Shown here: positions 2,883 through 52,519 of the stretch, one piece after another
Layout of the letters: each line of letters begins with the position of its first letter
How positions within the stretch are numbered: position 1 is the first letter of the stretch
Sequence record: PZ445436.1
Source of the DNA: a phage
Length of the DNA stretch: 64,000 bases
Reading direction: 5' to 3' (one strand)
Made by a program: the position numbers and the translations under genes
Notes under the pieces: generated by a model
What the model was told of the DNA's origin: nothing
The model's input: only the letters and a program-made list of their open reading frames with translations
The model's database searches: none

Positions 2883-3131
2883 TTACTTCAATGTTACCAC
2901 AAAGTGACGAACTGCTTTTCGTGCAGCAGAAGCCAAAGGCTTAGCATATTTAAGTTCATCTTTTTCCTGAAGCTCAGCAGCTAATGCAGTTTGAGCAGGA
3001 TTCAGATGTTTGAAATAACGCAGGATTTCAAGAGCTTCGGCTTCAACATCAATAGATGCGCCATAGTTTTCGTGACCATTATTCCATGCGTTTCGTTGCA
3101 GTTCAAGAGCGTGTTGTAATTGTTTAATCAT
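2883..3131 (-). CDS. rIII: rIII lysis-inhibition accessory protein
   Basis: 82 aa, T4 rIII length and position just downstream of gene 31; late promoter motif upstream. Confidence 0.8.
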   Translation of the reverse strand: MIKQLQHALELQRNAWNNGHENYGASIDVEAEALEILRYFKHLNPAQTALAAELQEKDELKYAKPLASAARKAVRHFVVTLK

Positions 3132-3270
3132 TTAAAAATTCTCGTTAGAGATTAAAACTCGGTAGTCACGTTCTTCTGAATTTCATCTTCTTTCGACAGA
3201 TCTCTCAGTTGTAGACTACCACATAGAATTGTTCGGTTAACTTATTATTCCGACACCCAATTCATATTAT

Positions 3271-3278
3271 TATTTATA
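3271..3278 (-). promoter_or_regulatory. late promoter motif TATAAATA upstream of rIII
   Basis: exact TATAAATA on minus strand in the 31-rIII gap. Confidence 0.55.
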
Positions 3279-3614
3279 TCACTTATAAAGACACGGAATA
3301 GCTTTATAGTGACAAGTAACGAATTTTTGTTTAATTTCTTTTGGCTGCTTAAGACCCAGAGCTACAAAAGGATGCGGAACATTTCGAATTTGACCAACTG
3401 GAAGAGAAGTCAAATCACCAACTTCGCAGAAACCTTCAGGAACATCAGGACCGACAGAGTGAACTACACACAGTTCAGGAACTTCACCTTGAACACGTTT
3501 ACCAATAATAAGTCCTGATTCTGTAACTTCTTCATCACCGGCTTGTGCAGGTTCAGAAACTAAAATAACATATTCACCGACAGCACGAATTGGTAGCTGT
3601 TGTACTTCAGACAT
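3279..3614 (-). CDS. 31: gp31 co-chaperonin (GroES analogue) for capsid protein folding
   Basis: 111 aa, sequence matches T4 gp31 as recalled; MotA-box middle promoter upstream. Confidence 0.9.
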
Positions 3615-46412: not shown

Positions 46413-46904
46413 TTATGCATAGCGAGCTTTGCTATAGTGTTTAATCCAACTTTCAGGAATGACTTTGTATGTTCCTAAAAATACCGCGTTGTATAACTTA
46501 ACGCCATCTTCTACCCATTGATCAGTAATGTATGCACACATAGCGCGAGTACGGTTAACAACACCTTCCTCACCTTCAGTAAATTCAAACTCATAAGGAG
46601 CAACGAACTTAATAGCCTGACCGAGTTTCCACTTAAAGTCTACACCTACATGCGAAGTATCAATCGTTTCAATTCCTTTAGCAGGAACAGCTTTCAAAAA
46701 CGCAGATTCAAGAAATTTCGCACGAACATAGCCAAACTGAGGTTTAGACTTTCCATCTTTAGGAATGATACGCACTTTTACTTCAGAATCTTCATCTTTA
46801 ACACCGTGTTTAAGCTGAATGCTTACAACTTCGACCAATTTTCCTGCCGCTTTAGAGCGGGATTTATCAGATACACGAGCTAATTCACCAATATTAATAA
46901 TCAT
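46413..46904 (-). CDS. hypothetical protein (motB-like by size and position)
   Basis: 163-aa ORF; C-terminal motif DQWVEDGVKLYNAV shared with next ORF. Confidence 0.45.
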   Translation of the reverse strand: MIINIGELARVSDKSRSKAAGKLVEVVSIQLKHGVKDEDSEVKVRIIPKDGKSKPQFGYVRAKFLESAFLKAVPAKGIETIDTSHVGVDFKWKLGQAIKFVAPYEFEFTEGEEGVVNRTRAMCAYITDQWVEDGVKLYNAVFLGTYKVIPESWIKHYSKARYA

Positions 46905-46948: not shown

Positions 46949-46978
46949 ATTATACTCTGGTCCCAAGAGTTTGTAAAC
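46949..46978 (-). promoter_or_regulatory. T4 early-type promoter
   Basis: GTTTAC, 18 nt, TATAAT; -10 inside GGGACCA/TGGTCCC inverted repeat. Confidence 0.6.
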
Positions 46979-47415
46979 TAGCTTACACGAACATTAATCA
47001 CTGCGCTGCGAGGAACTACAGAGTACTCTCCAGCATGAACTACGTTCAGAAGTTCAACACCATCTTCAATCCACTGATCAGTCACCCATCCACCCACAGG
47101 ATTCGCGAATGGACGACGAATATAAACTGCCTTACACAGTAGATCAGTTGGATCTTCAGGTTTTTCAATTTCTGTCAATAGACTAAAATCTTTTTCATAA
47201 ATAATAAGCGGTGATACCATTCCATAATAGTTTCTAATTTCAATATACATCATACCGATAAGAATTCCGCTATTAACACTAATAACAGTAAAAGGATATC
47301 CGCCAGTTAAAGCAAGAAGTTCACAAAACTTATTATGAGCTGTATTAGACAGTACCGGAAAATTCTTAATTTCATCAAATTTTTTCAATTGATAAACAGC
47401 ATTATTTTTAATCAT
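46978..47415 (-). CDS. hypothetical protein, paralogous C-terminus to 46413..46904
   Basis: 145 aa; DQWIEDGVELLNVV. Confidence 0.45.
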   Translation of the reverse strand: MIKNNAVYQLKKFDEIKNFPVLSNTAHNKFCELLALTGGYPFTVISVNSGILIGMMYIEIRNYYGMVSPLIIYEKDFSLLTEIEKPEDPTDLLCKAVYIRRPFANPVGGWVTDQWIEDGVELLNVVHAGEYSVVPRSAVINVRVS

Positions 47416-47425
47416 AATTTTCTCT

Positions 47426-47938
47426 TTAATCTAAGGTAATAAAGCCTTTTAATTCGGCATGCGATTTGCGGAACATTACTTGATGTCCGCCAATGATAAC
47501 TTGGTCATCTGGCACTTCATAAATCGCAATGTACATTCCACGTTCTTTTAAGTCTTCACGCTCTTCTCGAGTGAACCATCTCATCATATCATATTCACTA
47601 GCGAAAGCAAAATGATATAATGCAATAAACCATAATGGAATATAATTTTCAATTCGTGAATAATCTTTATTCCATTTAGTTTTAATAACATCATTAGCAT
47701 TTTCAACTAATAACTTATCATCGTGTGGAATAGGAATACTTTCATGGCTTTCATAATTATCGCTATGATGATGAAATGATGATGAATTAATACCACAAAA
47801 TTTTAACCAAGTTCGAGTTTTCATAGAATCAAATCCACGATAAGGAGTTGATTGAACGCATAACTCTTGCCTAATTTTCATTATACCACTATCATCATTT
47901 AATGCACTAAACGATGATTCAACACGATAAATTTTCAT
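47426..47938 (-). CDS. hypothetical protein
   Basis: 170 aa from ATG 47936-47938 with GAGGA SD; promoter -10 lies inside longer track ORF. Confidence 0.5.
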   Translation of the reverse strand: MKIYRVESSFSALNDDSGIMKIRQELCVQSTPYRGFDSMKTRTWLKFCGINSSSFHHHSDNYESHESIPIPHDDKLLVENANDVIKTKWNKDYSRIENYIPLWFIALYHFAFASEYDMMRWFTREEREDLKERGMYIAIYEVPDDQVIIGGHQVMFRKSHAELKGFITLD

Positions 47939-47965
47939 TTTATTATCCTCAGTAGCTATGGTGTT

Positions 47966-47995
47966 ATAATACCACAACTAACCGAGGAAGTAAAC
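47966..47995 (-). promoter_or_regulatory. T4 early-type promoter
   Basis: GTTTAC, 18 nt, TGGTATTAT. Confidence 0.6.
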
Positions 47996-48001
47996 AACTT
48001 T

Positions 48002-48685
48002 TTATCGTTTTGTTGGAAGAGATAGAGGATCGCATTCTTCCTCTGATGGAGCATCTTCAAGACCCATAGCATATCGCAAAGCATACTTCATCATCAGGAT
48101 GTCTTTCGCACAGTCATGAATAGAATCATGCGCAACGAATCCATCTAAAGTTCCTTTTGGAAGAGGACACGTGGTCATATCACGAACAAGCAGAAGTGCT
48201 TCAATTCTGGTACGAATATCACGCTGATTCCAGAATTTACAAGGTTCTAACTTAAATGTGTCAAGCTCATTCTCGGAAACGCCGTTAAGACGTTGAATAT
48301 CGCGAATGAGATCGACTAAAATTGGAAAATCAAACGACATTCCACGGCACCAACCTTGAGATTTCCAAGGATCGATATTATGTGCATTGATGTAATCATT
48401 AAATTTTGCAATACCATCGATAGTGCTTACATCTTCATCGGATGGTGCAATATTTTTTCGAGCTTCAGGAGACTGATTTTTCCACCATTCGATAGTGCTT
48501 TTAGTAAAAAGACGATGTCCTTTTTGGCTTTTTAAATCAAATTTGATTTTAATGCCACGTGAAACTAATTCATCAAATGTTTCAACTACTTCTGGGTTAG
48601 GGTCAAAAGCAATTACAGCCAAATCAATAACAGCTGCTTTTTCACCGCTTCCCATTGTTTCAAAATCTATAATAAAATCAAACAT
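48002..48685 (-). CDS. dexA: exonuclease A (DnaQ-like 3'-5' exonuclease)
   Basis: 227 aa; N-terminal DFET exo motif; T4 DexA length. Confidence 0.85.
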   Translation of the reverse strand: MFDFIIDFETMGSGEKAAVIDLAVIAFDPNPEVVETFDELVSRGIKIKFDLKSQKGHRLFTKSTIEWWKNQSPEARKNIAPSDEDVSTIDGIAKFNDYINAHNIDPWKSQGWCRGMSFDFPILVDLIRDIQRLNGVSENELDTFKLEPCKFWNQRDIRTRIEALLLVRDMTTCPLPKGTLDGFVAHDSIHDCAKDILMMKYALRYAMGLEDAPSEEECDPLSLPTKR

Positions 48686-48942
48686 TAAATTTTCCTCGCT
48701 AAATCACGAATTTGACCTACAGTATAGTCTTGAATATAAACTTTATTGATAGGCTCATCAATAAATTTTGCCATAGATTCAATGTCTTTTTGTATTTCTT
48801 CAAGACTGTATACTATCTTTAAAGCTTTTTCGCGAATAGTAATATTTTCAGGACCCTGATTTTCTTCAATGACAGCTTTAACATTTGTCATAAGAGATTT
48901 AAACTGGTACCAACTCAACTCAATCATTAATAATCGCCTCAT
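48685..48942 (-). CDS. hypothetical small protein (paralog family member 1)
   Basis: 85 aa; shares LEEIqkDi...V.I.DY..G.I pattern with next ORF. Confidence 0.5.
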   Translation of the reverse strand: MRRLLMIELSWYQFKSLMTNVKAVIEENQGPENITIREKALKIVYSLEEIQKDIESMAKFIDEPINKVYIQDYTVGQIRDLARKI

Positions 48943-49180
48943 AAAGATAGCTAATTTCGCCTAAAACGTAATCACTGATTGTAACAGTTTTCACTTCACC
49001 GCAAAAGAATTCTAACGCAATTAAATCTCGTTCAATTTCTTCTAATTGAAGCATCAACTTATTAGATTCAATTTTTACAGTTTCACGATTTTTACCATGA
49101 GCAATTTCATAAATTTCGCTCACTTTATCTTGAAGCAGATAAAACTGATCTTTAGTTATTTCCACGAATAGCTTCCTCAA
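48920..49180 (-). CDS. hypothetical small protein (paralog family member 2)
   Basis: 86 aa. Confidence 0.5.
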   Translation of the reverse strand: MRKLFVEITKDQFYLLQDKVSEIYEIAHGKNRETVKIESNKLMLQLEEIERDLIALEFFCGEVKTVTISDYVLGEISYLYEAIIND

Positions 49181-49412
49181 ATTTAATTAGTAATTTACAG
49201 ACACTTTCATCTAGTGTAATTACCGTATCTGTATTACTGTGATATGATTGTTTTTCAATTCGTTTAATTGCTAATATAGTATCACTTATAAGATAAAGCT
49301 TATGAAGGAGCTCAGCTCCTGTTACCATAACATCGAGATTATCTTGCTTATTAGTATGCTTCCTTATACCATCTATTAGACGATTTAAATATTTTGAATT
49401 GATGTTAATCAT
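49152..49412 (-). CDS. hypothetical small protein (possible member 3)
   Basis: 86 aa, weaker similarity. Confidence 0.45.
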   Translation of the reverse strand: MININSKYLNRLIDGIRKHTNKQDNLDVMVTGAELLHKLYLISDTILAIKRIEKQSYHSNTDTVITLDESVCKLLIKFEEAIRGNN

Positions 49413-49418
49413 ATAGCC

Positions 49419-50738
49419 TCACACATAAAATACATCATAACGACCACGAGTTACACCAACATAAAGAAGTTGTTGGGCCAATTCAGCATCTGCATAATGA
49501 ATACAAGGCGTATAAATGAAAGCACGGTCTACAGACATACCCTGAGCTTTATGGAATGTTGATGCAGGAAGTGCTTTCACTTTACTAAACTGTGATTTAG
49601 CATCCCAAAAATCACTCCATGGAGCTTTTCCGCCTTTGTTCCAATTTTTATAAGTTTCTGCCGTTTTACCTAAAAATAGGTTAAACTTATACAATTCTTC
49701 ATCAGATGAAATTATTTTAATCTTTTCACGATAATATTCATCATCGCCGTAAGTTTCTACTGTTAAATCCCAATGACGAATTAAGTATTCTCCAGGAACA
49801 CCACGGGCTTTAACAAACGTTGATGTATACTCTGCTTCTATAATACGAACTAATTGTCCGTTATTAAAAATAATTTCTGACACAGGCTTTCCATCAATTT
49901 TATATGTTTTAATTAATGGTTCCTGCATTACAATAATTTCACCTACAATAAAATCTTTATCAGTTTCAAAAATCTTTTTACGAATAATGCTATTTAACTT
50001 GTCAACAGATTTATTCGTAAATGCCATTACGCGATTTTCAAACAAATCATCTAGAGATTTGACGATTGAAAAATAATTTACCATAAAATCGCGTAAAGCG
50101 GTATCACCTGTAAATCCACGTACTCCATGCCCGTCAACAACTTTATCATAAATCCACTTACCGTTGCGAACATCAGTAGCTACATCAATAATAGGAGCAT
50201 TACTGCGTTTAACTTCAGTAAGTTCACACTGATAAAAATCTTTGTGTGTAAAGAATGGACTGATATAAGCAGTATTTTCTCCTGGATCAACAGGTCTAAT
50301 TTGCTTATTATCCCCTATTCCAATTATAGTACACCAAGGTGGAATAGTTGAAAGCAGAATTTTAAATAGCTTTCTATCATACATTGACACTTCGTCGCAG
50401 ATTAATACCCTGCATTTAGCTAAATCTGGTACTTCCTTCTGTTCAAAAAGAACGTTTTCTTCATACGTAACTGGGTTAATTTTAAGAATACTGTGAATAG
50501 TACTCGCTTCTTTCCCCGACAGTTTTGAAAGAATCTTTTTAGCTGCATGTGTAGGAGCTGCCAAAATGATACCAGTTTCGCCTGTTGATATTAAAGCTTC
50601 AATGATGAACTTAGTAAGAGTAGTCTTACCGGTACCAGCAGGTCCATTAATAGTTACATGATGTTTCTTTTCTTTAATAGCCTTCATAACAATGTTAAAG
50701 GCATTTTTCTGGCCTTCGGTCAAATCATCAAATGTCAT
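49419..50738 (-). CDS. dda: Dda DNA helicase (SF1B)
   Basis: 439 aa; Walker A GPAGTGKT; T4 Dda length. Confidence 0.9.
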   Translation of the reverse strand: MTFDDLTEGQKNAFNIVMKAIKEKKHHVTINGPAGTGKTTLTKFIIEALISTGETGIILAAPTHAAKKILSKLSGKEASTIHSILKINPVTYEENVLFEQKEVPDLAKCRVLICDEVSMYDRKLFKILLSTIPPWCTIIGIGDNKQIRPVDPGENTAYISPFFTHKDFYQCELTEVKRSNAPIIDVATDVRNGKWIYDKVVDGHGVRGFTGDTALRDFMVNYFSIVKSLDDLFENRVMAFTNKSVDKLNSIIRKKIFETDKDFIVGEIIVMQEPLIKTYKIDGKPVSEIIFNNGQLVRIIEAEYTSTFVKARGVPGEYLIRHWDLTVETYGDDEYYREKIKIISSDEELYKFNLFLGKTAETYKNWNKGGKAPWSDFWDAKSQFSKVKALPASTFHKAQGMSVDRAFIYTPCIHYADAELAQQLLYVGVTRGRYDVFYV

Positions 50739-51046
50739 CGGAAAGTCCCTGCAATTGGAATACTAACAATACGCCCAGTATCTAGAATTCGTTGATATAA
50801 TCTTTGTGTATCTACATCAGGCTTAACATGTTTAACTTCTATTTTATTAAACCAAAATTTACGTGGAGTCTCAACTAATCTTGGAATTCCCTTACCTAAA
50901 GCTAGTTGATACTGCTCTTTAAGAGTGGTAAATACTTTGTCAGCAATATTCCATTCAAAAAATACAGCAGGACGATGTTCATCAAGCGGAACTGGCGCCG
51001 TAAATCCGTCTTTGTCTCGGTAAACTATCGCATATACATAAACCAT
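50735..51046 (-). CDS. hypothetical protein (dda.1-like)
   Basis: 103-aa ORF, ATGA overlap. Confidence 0.5.
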   Translation of the reverse strand: MVYVYAIVYRDKDGFTAPVPLDEHRPAVFFEWNIADKVFTTLKEQYQLALGKGIPRLVETPRKFWFNKIEVKHVKPDVDTQRLYQRILDTGRIVSIPIAGTFR

Positions 51047-51047
51047 A

Positions 51048-51794
51048 TTATCCTCGGATAAGTTTAAAAATTGAACAATTTAGCGGGTATCCTCTTTTTA
51101 ATTTGAGTTTATCAATAAATGATAAGTTTTGAAACCGCTCTACACCTTGAATAATTTTATCACACATATCATATTGCATTTCTGCTTCTGACAACTTTTT
51201 CACAGTTTTCCAATCCGAGCCTTTAAGAAGAACGTTCAATTTAACAACTTCAGCGCCTTCTGCTATACGAGAACCATCAATACGAGCTTTAAGTGCTATA
51301 ATTCTTAGCTTAATGTCAGAGGTCTGTTTTGATTTAGAAAGCTGAGAAATGTGTTCAATTCGGTTTTCACGTTTTTTCTGTATAGCTTTAATTTGATTAT
51401 AAGTCTTTTTGATTTTAGCCCATTTCTTTTCATCTAAATTTAGTTTATGAACTTTTTTCGCAGATGAACGACCAATTCGCAAAGCAAATAAATCACGCTT
51501 TTCAATCAACTCTTCTAAAGTATAATCAGAACGAAATGTATTATACTTTTTCTTTACTGCAATAACATTCCCTTTAATGTATCCAACGTTATTATCAAAA
51601 CGTTCTAATGATAATTTCTCTCCTTCAATACGATTATCAAAAGGTTCTCCCGAGTAAGCGCAAACTTTTTGATCTAAAATGTTCTTAATGTAATTGAAGT
51701 CTAAGTTAAAATCTTTAGAACGTCTTTTTGCAGATGCCTGGGTATGCTCTAGACGACGTTTAATTTTACGAATTTGGTTATTAGACAGCTTCAT
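51048..51794 (-). CDS. basic protein, Srd-like by position and size
   Basis: 248 aa between dda.1 and modA; early promoter upstream; a short HNH-like patch is present but lacks the zinc ligands. Confidence 0.4.
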   Translation of the reverse strand: MKLSNNQIRKIKRRLEHTQASAKRRSKDFNLDFNYIKNILDQKVCAYSGEPFDNRIEGEKLSLERFDNNVGYIKGNVIAVKKKYNTFRSDYTLEELIEKRDLFALRIGRSSAKKVHKLNLDEKKWAKIKKTYNQIKAIQKKRENRIEHISQLSKSKQTSDIKLRIIALKARIDGSRIAEGAEVVKLNVLLKGSDWKTVKKLSEAEMQYDMCDKIIQGVERFQNLSFIDKLKLKRGYPLNCSIFKLIRG

Positions 51795-51830
51795 ATTTTT
51801 CTCACATCTTACGGACGGTTAACTACTTAT

Positions 51831-51860
51831 ACTATAACATTTTTACTTTAACTTGTAAAC
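51831..51860 (-). promoter_or_regulatory. T4 early-type promoter for the srd-like gene
   Basis: GTTTAC, 18 nt, TGTTATAGT. Confidence 0.6.
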
Positions 51861-51874
51861 AACTTTATGAAAAA

Positions 51875-51899
51875 TGCTTTAAAACTTTCATGGTATAAT
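51875..51899 (+). promoter_or_regulatory. MotA-box middle-promoter-like motif on plus strand, antisense to modA
   Basis: AAAATGCTTTA, 12-nt spacer, TGGTATAAT; nearest plus-strand target is the antisense of modA. Confidence 0.4.
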
Positions 51900-51916
51900 G
51901 AATCTAAGTCCTTCCA

Positions 51917-52519
51917 TTATAGATTAAATCCTTCAAAATCAAGAGTATAGATAGTGTATGTTGAATACTTTTTATACTCATATCTATCCGCAATTCTAAA
52001 TACACTTCCAGCTGGTATCATTACTTCCTGTTCATCTGAAACTAATTCCATATTACGATAACGATGACTATCCGGAAACTTAAAGTTTGGATTGTATTCT
52101 TTACAGCGTAGAGCTTTTATAGCATACTCCTGGAAATTGAATACCATAGGAGCTTTGAATTCAAAAATAACTTGTGTGTTATATTCTAAACCAGAAGCAA
52201 AATGTAGAGCTATATTTTTATCATATGAAGCTGATACTACTTTATCAAATGTAATAATATCAATTCCTTGATTTAATACTTGTTTAGTCTCAGCTGGAAC
52301 ACCTCTCCAAAGAGGTTTATCGTTTGGTTCCAAACGAGATTTGATTATTTCATTTAACCAAGTATGGTCATCTGGTTTATTAGTAATACAATGAATTAAA
52401 AGTTCAATTTCAGATAAATTAAACCCTTCAGAAAGTAATTCTTCACGAATAGAAGCACGCACCGATGCATCCATTGATTTTATTTTAAAATCTTTTAGTT
52501 GCATTACTGAGTATTTCAT
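51917..52519 (-). CDS. modA: ADP-ribosyltransferase ModA
   Basis: 200 aa; ART triad-like R (LWRG), S-x-S (SAS), E-x-E (EQEVMIP). Confidence 0.8.
   Translation of the reverse strand: MKYSVMQLKDFKIKSMDASVRASIREELLSEGFNLSEIELLIHCITNKPDDHTWLNEIIKSRLEPNDKPLWRGVPAETKQVLNQGIDIITFDKVVSASYDKNIALHFASGLEYNTQVIFEFKAPMVFNFQEYAIKALRCKEYNPNFKFPDSHRYRNMELVSDEQEVMIPAGSVFRIADRYEYKKYSTYTIYTLDFEGFNL

What the first reader, a model, noticed from the sequence alone, without database searches (positions are those of the whole stretch)
48685..49412. Tandem array of three ~85-aa paralogues between dexA and dda
ORFs 48685-48942 and 48920-49180 share a clear pattern (MR.L...QF..L...V ... LEEI.kDi ... V.I.DY..G.I..L); the third (49152-49412) is a weaker match. 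Tandemly duplicated, diverging small genes are typical of host-interaction or anti-defence functions.
Basis: seen in the sequence. Interest (0 to 1): 0.35.

Follow-up and report, generated by a model that had tools for sequence, protein, structure and literature searches.

The report
Three tandem DexA.1-like small phage genes
Between the helicase gene dda and the exonuclease gene dexA of this T4-like phage sit three back-to-back genes for related ~9-10 kDa proteins: the known T4 genes dexA.1 and dexA.2, plus a very diverged third copy that T4 itself has deleted.

Summary
The window is a Tequatrovirus (98% identical to RB3/teqdroes). On the minus strand, dda is followed by ORF3 (49152-49412), dexA.2 (48920-49165), dexA.1 (48685-48927) and dexA, as one translationally coupled chain.

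- **DexA.1 vs DexA.2:** clear paralogues (BLASTP E=4e-10, 31% identity).
- **ORF3:** invisible to pairwise BLAST. A profile built without it scores it 20.3 bits (P about 2.5e-8; best of 5000 shuffles 12.8). An independent AlphaFold model has the same beta-alpha-alpha-beta-alpha topology, and Foldseek links the two models reciprocally.
this is the Shine-Dalgarno GAGG of the next gene, not coding sequence. The proteins are 80, 81 and 86 aa.
- **Distribution:** the family exists only in T4-like phages and always sits upstream of dexA, in 0-3 copies.
- **T4:** it lost ORF3 through a deletion of about 233 bp that left ORF3's 3' end behind.
- **Selection:** dN/dS is 0.12-0.15, against 0.00-0.02 for dda and dexA. 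Published screens call T4 dexA.1 and dexA.2 non-essential.
- **Function:** no enzyme motif and no informative fold match. Most likely they are small non-enzymatic protein binders, but this is inferred, not shown.
- **Novelty:** low. Only ORF3's family membership and the T4 deletion appear new.

The parts
49419..50738 (-). dda (Dda DNA helicase), the gene upstream of the array. Its TGA stop (49421-49419) overlaps the GAGG that serves ORF3.
   Evidence: 439-aa ORF. It differs from T4 Dda at 6 residues. Annotated as dda in RB3 and T4.
49152..49412 (-). ORF3, 86 aa, pI 7.9. It is the third, most diverged paralogue (orthologues RB3_017 and RB14ncORF015c; phrog_4967) and is absent from T4. ATG at 49412, with GAGG at 49420-49417.
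   Evidence: Profile P=2.5e-8. AF2 pLDDT 85.6, with b1 2-5, a1 6-22, a2 26-52, b2 64-67, a3 69-84. Foldseek matches to a DexA.2 homologue and to other Straboviridae proteins of about 80 aa. dN/dS about 0.15 between intact copies.
48920..49165 (-). dexA.2, 81 aa, pI 4.4. GTG start at 49165, with GAGG at 49178-49175, which lies inside the 3' end of ORF3. It overlaps ORF3 by 14 nt.
   Evidence: 4 aa differences from T4 DexA.2. phrog_1700 E=2e-48. The T4 protein has been detected by mass spectrometry, with cGAS conjugated at K5 (PMC10097602).
48685..48927 (-). dexA.1, 80 aa, pI 5.1. ATG at 48927, with GAGG at 48940-48937, which lies inside the 3' end of dexA.2. It overlaps dexA.2 by 8 nt. Its TAA stop overlaps the dexA ATG (TAATG).
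   Evidence: phrog_1700 E=1e-43. AF2 pLDDT 94.8, with b1 2-5, a1 6-22, a2 26-53, b2 62-65, a3 67-79. 4 aa differences from T4 DexA.1.
48002..48685 (-). dexA (3'-5' DNA exonuclease A), the last gene of the coupled chain.
   Evidence: 227-aa ORF identical in protein sequence to T4 DexA. Annotated as dexA.
51147..51178 (-). Putative middle-mode promoter driving dda.1-dda-ORF3-dexA.2-dexA.1 (inferred). It has a MotA-box-like TGCAATA at 51178-51172, a -10 TAAAAT at 51159-51154, and a predicted start at A51147, 101 nt before the dda.1 ATG, with A at position -1.
   Evidence: Sequence read. The spacing and the A at -1 match the single transcription start site with a 101-nt leader reported for T4 (bioRxiv 10.1101/2024.04.04.588121). 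The strict MotA-box pattern did not match here. No minus-strand terminator-like site was found in 47900-52000, which includes dda to dexA.

Best explanation
SHOWN. The region is a head-to-tail array of three paralogous genes: ORF3, dexA.2 and dexA.1. Each encodes a 9-10 kDa protein with the same small fold: a three-helix bundle closed by a two-stranded beta pairing, in the order b-a-a-b-a. The genes form one translationally coupled chain, dda -> ORF3 -> dexA.2 -> dexA.1 -> dexA. Each gene carries the Shine-Dalgarno GAGG for the next gene inside its own last codons. The chain probably lies on the middle-mode transcript that starts upstream of dda.1.

The family is confined to T4-like phages (Tevenvirinae). 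A single copy normally sits immediately upstream of dexA. Tequatroviruses carry an expanded array, and T4 itself secondarily deleted ORF3.

All three genes are under purifying selection but evolve about ten times faster than their enzyme neighbours. They are repeatedly lost or broken, and they are dispensable in the laboratory host.

INFERRED. The proteins are non-enzymatic binding modules. A conserved hydrophobic core and helix caps carry variable surfaces; within-genus substitutions cluster in the a1-a2 loop and the start of a2. Each paralogue probably sequesters or modulates a different protein partner, most likely a small host protein, during the early-to-middle takeover phase. The benefit would be conditional on host strain. 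The paralogues may also pair with each other.
For: Paralogy:
- for DexA.1/DexA.2.
- for ORF3 by profile.
- Searches show identical predicted topology from independent alignments.
- Searches give reciprocal Foldseek hits, which also reach both Cronus proteins and proteins of about 80 aa in CC31, fHe-Yen9-01, Henu6 and Aeh1.

Coupling and starts:
- Searches show TGAGG before each copy and overlaps of 14, 8 and 1 nt.
- One search finds no internal terminator-like site.
- Searches support the transcript.

Distribution:
- The exhaustive HMM search found only 15 hits among 1.84 billion representatives.
- Copies per genus: 0 in Mosigvirus; 1 in Dhakavirus, Gaprivervirus, Karamvirus, a Kanagawavirus ORF of uncertain membership, and a Klebsiella phage; 2 in Roskildevirus and T4; 3 in this window, RB3, pSs-1 and ime09.
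- The Moonvirus, Gelderlandvirus and Tegunavirus matches lie beside dexA, or (Tegunavirus) at the equivalent genome position.
- ORF3 is present in 308 records, against 496 that hold a dexA.2 of at least 80% identity.

T4 deletion:
- T4 keeps the last ~33 nt of ORF3 (ATTAAATTTGAGGAAGCTATTCGTGGAAATAAC) directly after the dda stop codon.

Selection:
- dN/dS is 0.02 for dda, 0.00 for dexA, 0.15 for dexA.1, 0.12 for dexA.2, and about 0.15 for intact ORF3 pairs.

Dispensability:
- Transposon saturation was 24 of 24 TA sites for both T4 genes.
- CRISPRi-ART called both 'Not Fit'.

Binder idea:
- No Pfam, NCBIfam or PADLOC family matched.
- Most members are acidic, pI 4.2-5.1.
- His-DexA.1 co-eluted with an E. 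coli protein of about 9 kDa.
- DexA.2 was detected in infected cells, with cGAS conjugated at K5.
- In ime09 a 1-nt deletion fuses DexA.2 and DexA.1 into one 159-aa protein, which is compatible with the two acting side by side.
Against: - No partner has been identified; the co-eluting host protein is unnamed in the paper.
- No phenotype is reported in T4 under RexAB, RnlAB, CBASS, DarTG1/2 or minimal medium. I saw gene-level numbers for only one comparison.
- The family always sits next to dexA and is coupled to it. That would fit a role with DexA or Dda rather than with the host.
- I could not run complex prediction.
- The models are predictions, and the ORF3 model rests on four near-identical sequences.
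- The ime09 fusion, the NBG2 frameshift and the RB14 frameshift could be sequencing errors.
- The direction of the T4 indel is inferred from parsimony.
Confidence: 0.5

Rival explanations
1. The small proteins are accessory or regulatory subunits of the neighbouring enzymes. They could be a chaperone, inhibitor or specificity factor for DexA exonuclease or Dda helicase, made in fixed ratio through translational coupling.
For: - A family member lies immediately upstream of dexA and overlaps its start in every genus examined that has one.
- In this window the dexA.1 stop overlaps the dexA ATG.
- All sit in one transcript with dda.
Against: - Mosigvirus has dda and dexA only 9 nt apart, with no small gene.
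- T4, RB14 and NBG2 have lost or broken individual copies while DexA protein stays 100% conserved.
- The small genes evolve far faster than DexA and Dda, unlike a tightly co-adapted subunit.
- From general knowledge of T4 biochemistry, purified Dda and DexA are active alone.
- Gene order is broadly conserved in T4-like genomes and gene overlaps are common, so position is weak evidence.
Confidence: 0.2
2. ORF3 is not a paralogue. It is an unrelated small helical gene inserted next to dexA.2, and it resembles the family by convergence of a simple fold.
For: - No BLASTP similarity to DexA.1 or DexA.2.
- hhalign of the shallow ORF3 alignment against the family gives E=0.0075 with only 5% probability.
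- No precomputed PF26837 hit on ORF3 homologues.
- Three-helix bundles are common.
Against: - A profile built without ORF3 gives P=2.5e-8, 7.5 bits above the best of 5000 composition-matched shuffles.
- Pairwise z scores of 5.0-5.6 to single-copy members of three other genera.
- The alignment is collinear from Met1 across the full length.
- The secondary-structure boundaries are the same, including the two short strands.
- The top Foldseek hits are specifically the proteins of about 80 aa from T4-like phages.
- Same position, size and coupling architecture.
Confidence: 0.07
3. The array is decaying baggage: ORFs with no present function that persist through linkage to dda and dexA.
For: - Non-essential, with no fitness effect in laboratory screens.
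- Frequent loss, frameshift and fusion.
Against: - dN/dS of 0.12-0.15 over dS of 0.15-0.5 shows purifying selection on all three.
- The family is retained across at least eight genera.
- High-confidence folds.
- The protein has been detected.
Confidence: 0.05

Closest known systems
T4 DexA.1 (Y00G_BPT4, T4p015) and DexA.2 (Y00H_BPT4, T4p016); phrog_1700; Pfam accession PF26837 as precomputed on homologues
   Same: - The window's dexA.1 and dexA.2 are the orthologues, with 4 aa differences each.
- They have the same position, overlaps and start codons.
- Both are already grouped in one PHROG and one Pfam accession, so their relatedness is implicitly on record.
   Different: Nothing material. 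Their function is unknown in the literature held here. RefSeq product names such as 'dextranase' and 'exonuclease' look like name-propagation errors, not evidence of function.
RB14ncORF015c / RB3_017 / phrog_4967 ('hypothetical protein' between dexA.2 and dda in many Tequatroviruses)
   Same: The window's ORF3 is this gene: 92-100% identity in 308 phage records.
   Different: The databases treat it as a separate orphan family: its own PHROG and no PF26837 hit. Here it is shown to be a diverged third paralogue of DexA.1/DexA.2, and T4 is shown to carry its deletion scar.
Single-copy 'DexA.2-like' genes upstream of dexA in other Tevenvirinae (VR7 gp015, Dhakavirus ESCO10_00009, Karamvirus KAALPHA_20, Merlin/S16 type, fHe-Yen9-01 type; phrog_5263)
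   Same: Same family, fold and position. They are the sequence bridges that connect ORF3 to DexA.2.
   Different: - One copy instead of three.
- Dhakavirus keeps a DexA.1-like copy (z=24), while Gaprivervirus keeps a copy nearer to DexA.2 (z=13) and ORF3 (z=5).
- So lineages hold different members of the family.
Small helical host-takeover proteins of T4 such as AsiA, and variable tandem families such as the internal proteins IPI-III (analogy recalled from general knowledge, not tested)
   Same: Small size, early or middle expression, non-essential, and no catalytic motif. The internal proteins also form a tandem, variable gene set, and one of them has an anti-restriction role.
   Different: No sequence or fold match to any of these was found. 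No target is known for the DexA.1 family. The internal proteins are packaged in the capsid and made late, whereas these genes are on a middle transcript.

Membership tests
DexA.1/DexA.2 family (phrog_1700; Pfam PF26837) | Significant match of DexA.1 and DexA.2 to the family profile | tested here: met
   phrog_1700 E=1e-43 (DexA.1) and 2.2e-48 (DexA.2). PF26837 is precomputed on their >88% identical homologues. The local Pfam-A copy lacks this accession (0 hits), so I could not read its name or description.
DexA.1/DexA.2 family (phrog_1700; Pfam PF26837) | Significant match of ORF3 to the curated family profile | tested here: not met
   ORF3 does not hit phrog_1700, and its homologues P0001-P0004 carry no PF26837 hit. 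By curated thresholds ORF3 is outside the family. Its membership rests on the wider profile below.
Wider 'upstream-of-dexA' small-protein family (own profile: Tequatro-, Dhaka-, Gapriver-, Karam-, Moon- and Tegunavirus members) | Profile match well above composition-matched shuffles, for ORF3 | tested here: met
   20.3 bits, P=2.5e-8, rank 1 of 5001, best shuffle 12.8 bits. The profile contained no ORF3 sequence. phrog_5263 matches all three window proteins.
Wider 'upstream-of-dexA' small-protein family | Shared fold: b1-a1-a2-b2-a3, about 80 aa | tested here: met
   DexA.1 model pLDDT 94.8. ORF3 model pLDDT 85.6, from its own 4-sequence alignment. The element boundaries are nearly identical. 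Reciprocal Foldseek gives TM 0.69-0.80, probability 1.00. These are predictions only; no solved structure exists.
Wider 'upstream-of-dexA' small-protein family | Position between dda and dexA, on the same strand, overlapping the next gene | tested here: met
   Window. Other genera. The Merlin-type matches overlap the annotated exonuclease gene.
Known anti-defence or defence protein families | Match to a described family, or a phenotype against a defence system | tested here: not met
   PADLOC-DB gave 0 hits. NCBIfam gave only noise far below cut-off. In published T4 transposon sequencing dexA.1 and dexA.2 are non-essential, and neither is named among the hits under RexAB, RnlAB, CBASS, DarTG1 or DarTG2. 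No dedicated anti-defence profile library was available.
Enzymes or nucleic-acid-binding proteins | Catalytic or DNA/RNA-binding motif or fold | tested here: not met

The most novel reading that the evidence does not exclude
The array is a diversified set of decoys or inhibitors aimed at variable host immunity or nucleoid proteins, with each paralogue covering a different target variant. One concrete version is that DexA.2 is a specific substrate or decoy of the CBASS Cap2-cGAS conjugation machinery, and that DexA.1 sequesters a small host protein of about 9 kDa. The single-gene screens would have missed this because the paralogues are redundant and because the relevant host factors are absent from E. 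coli K-12.
Probability: 0.12. Interest if true: 0.65.

Novelty: new member of a known kind. Interest (0 to 1): 0.3.

Why it matters
T4 is the reference phage, yet about half of its genes have no known function. This analysis shows three things:
- dexA.1 and dexA.2 belong to a small lineage-restricted family of 0-3 copies.
- The orphan ORF next to dda in most T4 relatives is a third member of that family.
- T4 itself is a deletion variant.

This has a practical consequence. Single knock-outs in T4 may be uninformative because of redundancy, so the RB3-type three-copy state is the better background for genetics. It also tidies misleading annotations ('dextranase', 'exonuclease').

The biological pay-off depends on finding the partner. 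The published, unnamed E. coli protein that co-elutes with DexA.1 makes that directly testable.

Tried and rejected
- **Pairwise BLASTP of ORF3** against DexA.1, DexA.2 and the single-copy proteins gave nothing.
- **hhalign** of the 4-sequence ORF3 alignment against the family was weak: E=0.0075, probability 5%. The ORF3 alignment is too shallow (Neff 1.07).
- **The word-indexed homologue search** with ORF3 found only 4 near-identical clusters.
- **The exhaustive 1.84-billion-protein profile search** found no cellular or distant relatives. It returned only 15 hits, two of which (P0124, P0125) are long repeat proteins that I regard as spurious.
- **Family libraries** (Pfam-A local copy, NCBIfam, PADLOC) returned no usable family.
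- **The afdb50 fold library** was unavailable.
- **Small ORFs between dda and dexA in more distant phages** (Acinetobacter Minot a-c, Krischvirus JK32 a/b, Slopekvirus P-KP2 a/b, Aeromonas avDM3, Kanagawavirus PEi26) did not reach significance with my profiles. I do not count them as members, although Foldseek hints that Acinetobacter and Aeromonas proteins may share the fold.
- **A profile search of all 434 stop-to-stop segments of at least 45 aa in the window** found no further paralogue.
- **A strict MotA-box pattern** did not hit upstream of dda.1.
- **The identity of the E. coli protein that co-elutes with DexA.1** is not given in the paper or its supplement.
- **The idea that the long 85/86-aa ORFs are the real proteins** was rejected, on the grounds of Shine-Dalgarno spacing, orthologue N-termini and the model's b1 strand at residues 2-5.
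Full report
**What is there**

The window is a Tequatrovirus. The 2.7-kb dexA-dda stretch is 98% identical to phages teqdroes, RB3 and many others.

On the minus strand the order is dda (49419-50738), ORF3 (49152-49412), dexA.2 (48920-49165), dexA.1 (48685-48927) and dexA (48002-48685). RB3 annotates the same three small genes. T4 annotates only dexA.1 and dexA.2, with just 21 nt between dexA.2 and dda.

**Checking the observation**

DexA.1 and DexA.2 align over their whole length: 31% identity, BLASTP E=4e-10. Smith-Waterman gives z=11, with 0 of 2000 shuffles reaching the score.

ORF3 shows nothing against either by BLASTP. Five other lines settle it.

1. phrog_5263 matches all three window proteins, with E=0.0059, 4.7e-8 and 1.8e-5.
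2. ORF3 aligns from Met1 with single-copy proteins found at the same locus in other genera. It scores z=6.5 against the pEC-M719 protein, and z=5.0-5.6 against VR7, the Merlin-type P0126 and the Yersinia-type P0127.
3. A profile built only from Tequatro-, Dhaka-, Gapriver-, Karam-, Moon- and Tegunavirus members, with no ORF3 sequence, scores ORF3 at 20.3 bits, P=2.5e-8. The best of 5000 shuffles of ORF3 reaches 12.8 bits.
4. AlphaFold2 models made from separate alignments give the same topology with nearly the same boundaries:
   - DexA.1 (pLDDT 94.8): b 2-5, a 6-22, a 26-53, b 62-65, a 67-79.
   - ORF3 (pLDDT 85.6): b 2-5, a 6-22, a 26-52, b 64-67, a 69-84.
5. Foldseek against viral models is reciprocal.
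   - The ORF3 model hits a DexA.2 homologue (BECP11) at TM 0.69/0.73.
   - The DexA.1 model hits the ORF3 family entry (Sf25) at TM 0.80/0.75.
   - Both hits have probability 1.00, and they sit among a list made almost entirely of proteins of about 80 aa from T4-like phages.

I therefore regard all three as paralogues.

The ORF finder starts at the first ATG or TTG, which gives 85 and 86 aa. The shared 'MR' is (A/T)TG-AGG, and the GAGG inside it lies 9 nt before the annotated starts (ATG 48927, GTG 49165).

Single-copy orthologues begin at the short position (MIKVTKDQFY...). The first strand of the model is residues 2-5. The published 'lysine 5' of T4 DexA.2 fits the numbering of the short form.

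The proteins are therefore 80, 81 and 86 aa.

Each unit carries the next gene's Shine-Dalgarno sequence in its own last codons, and the gene overlaps are 14, 8 and 1 nt. The duplicated unit thus included the coupling junction. The result is one translationally coupled chain from dda to dexA.

No minus-strand terminator-like site lies within the region. A -10 element and an A start at 51147 reproduce the 101-nt leader and the A at -1 reported for the single T4 transcription start that drives dda.1 through dexA.1.

**Distribution and history**

An exhaustive profile search of 1.84 billion representative proteins returned only 15 hits. All credible ones come from T4-like phages, so the family is small and lineage-restricted.

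Copy number between dda and dexA varies by genus.

| Copies | Where |
|---|---|
| 0 | Mosigvirus (dda and dexA 9 nt apart) |
| 1 | Dhakavirus, Gaprivervirus, Karamvirus, a Klebsiella phage |
| 1 (beside dexA, or at the equivalent genome position) | Moon-, Gelderland- and Tegunavirus types |
| 2 (both members, an independent tandem pair) | Roskildevirus Cronus |
| 2 | T4, NBG2 |
| 3 | this window, RB3, pSs-1, ime09 |

ORF3 occurs in 308 phage records, against 496 records holding a dexA.2 of at least 80% identity.

T4 retains the last ~33 nt of ORF3 directly after the dda stop codon. These 33 nt contain the ribosome-binding site and start of dexA.2. The simplest reading is a deletion of about 233 bp in the T4 lineage between short ATTAA repeats.

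Other lesions were also seen:
- An 8-bp tandem duplication truncates ORF3 in RB14.
- A 1-nt deletion frameshifts dexA.1 in NBG2.
- A 1-nt deletion fuses DexA.2 and DexA.1 into a 159-aa protein in ime09. This explains the 160-position phrog_1700 profile.

Dhakavirus keeps a DexA.1-like copy, whereas Gaprivervirus keeps one closer to DexA.2 and ORF3.

No further paralogue lies elsewhere in the 64-kb window.

**Selection and expression**

Values below come from six Tequatrovirus genomes.

| Gene | dN/dS |
|---|---|
| dda | 0.02 |
| dexA | 0.00 (protein identical in five of six) |
| dexA.1 | 0.15 |
| dexA.2 | 0.12 |
| ORF3, intact pairs | about 0.15 |

The small genes are therefore real coding genes under purifying selection, but they accept roughly ten times more amino-acid change than their neighbours. 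Substitutions cluster around the a1-a2 loop and the start of a2; this comes from inspecting the sequences.

Published data report the following:
- DexA.2 was detected in infected cells, with cGAS conjugated at K5 (PMC10097602).
- Both T4 proteins are soluble when over-expressed, and His-DexA.1 co-elutes with an unnamed E. coli protein of about 9 kDa (PMC8076793).
- Both genes are non-essential by transposon sequencing (24 of 24 TA sites hit) and are not named among the conditional hits under five defence systems or in minimal medium (bioRxiv 10.1101/2025.11.20.689424).
- CRISPRi-ART found no fitness effect (PMC11879866).

**Mechanism**

Nothing enzymatic or nucleic-acid-binding is detectable. 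Most members are acidic, whereas ORF3 is near neutral.

The conserved positions are core hydrophobic residues and the S/D-D/E cap of helix 3. So the scaffold is conserved and the surfaces vary.

My best-supported reading is that these are non-enzymatic binding modules made in the early-to-middle phase. Each would engage a protein partner, probably a small host protein, with a benefit that depends on the host strain. This step is an inference, and I put it at about 0.4-0.5. The anatomy and the paralogy I put at 0.9 or higher.

The main rival is an accessory role for DexA or Dda (about 0.2). Invariant adjacency to dexA favours it. Against it stand Mosigvirus, which lacks the gene; the repeated losses beside a perfectly conserved DexA; and the mismatch in evolutionary rates.

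**Comparison with what is known, and novelty**

dexA.1 and dexA.2 are long-annotated T4 ORFs. One PHROG and one Pfam accession (PF26837, seen only as a precomputed label) already group them, so their paralogy is not new.

ORF3 is catalogued as a separate orphan (phrog_4967, no PF26837 hit). I found no trace in the literature held here of its membership in the family, of the T4 deletion scar, or of the 0-3 copy series.

That makes this a new member of a known kind, and the interest is modest.

Noticed in passing
L018 (phage ime09) 2461-2940, minus strand; equivalent to window 48685-49165: A 1-nt deletion in the dexA.2/dexA.1 overlap (ATTATTAATG becomes GTT-TTAATG) fuses the two genes into one 159-aa ORF, annotated 'dexA.1'. 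This explains why phrog_1700 is 160 positions long. It could be a natural fusion or a sequencing error.
   Followed up: partly
L016 (RB14) about 1965-1985; equivalent to window about 49385-49395: An 8-bp tandem duplication (AAATATTT) after codon 9 of ORF3 (within the Y8-L9 codons) creates a premature stop. The record annotates only a 58-aa remnant (RB14ncORF015c).
   Followed up: yes
L015 (NBG2) about 2500; equivalent to window about 48862: A 1-nt deletion frameshifts dexA.1 after about 21 codons. The record annotates no dexA.1 and only a fragment of dexA.2.
   Followed up: yes
window 48920-49165 and 48685-48927 (annotation in public records): RefSeq and UniRef names for these proteins ('dextranase' for DexA.2; 'exonuclease' or 'Phage exonuclease' for DexA.1 and DexA.2; 'major capsid domain-containing protein' in ESCO10) appear to be propagated from the gene symbol or from neighbours. 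No sequence or fold evidence supports any of them.
   Followed up: partly
window 46413-46904 and 46978-47415, minus strand: MotB (163 aa) and the adjacent motB.1-position ORF (145 aa) share a 29-aa C-terminal motif, TDQW(V/I)EDGV.L.N.V..G.Y.V.P.S, at 55% identity (E=5e-10). This is a second pair of partly related neighbours just downstream of dexA. RB14's annotation already notes a similarity to motB.
   Followed up: partly
proteins P0116 (141 aa) and P0123 (112 aa), from short metagenome contigs: The C-terminal ~40 residues of DexA.1 are fused to unrelated N-terminal sequence; in P0116 this is an N-6 DNA methylase fragment (PF02384) on a 639-nt contig. These are most likely assembly chimeras.
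   Followed up: no
BFVD entries Q76YD6 and Q76YD5 (Aeromonas phage Aeh1), and A0A410T616 and A0A410T5P1 (Acinetobacter phage Henu6): Pairs of proteins of about 76-92 aa in distant T4-like phages give weak Foldseek matches to the ORF3 and DexA.1 models. The fold, and possibly tandem copies (the Aeh1 accessions are consecutive), may extend beyond the sequence-detectable family.
   Followed up: no
L011 (Acinetobacter phage Minot) 2598-3499; L014 (P-KP2) 2893-3486; L013 (JK32) 3076-3487: The dda-dexA gap also holds 2-3 small ORFs in these genera, but none matches the family profile. The slot seems to be a general hotspot for small accessory genes.
   Followed up: partly
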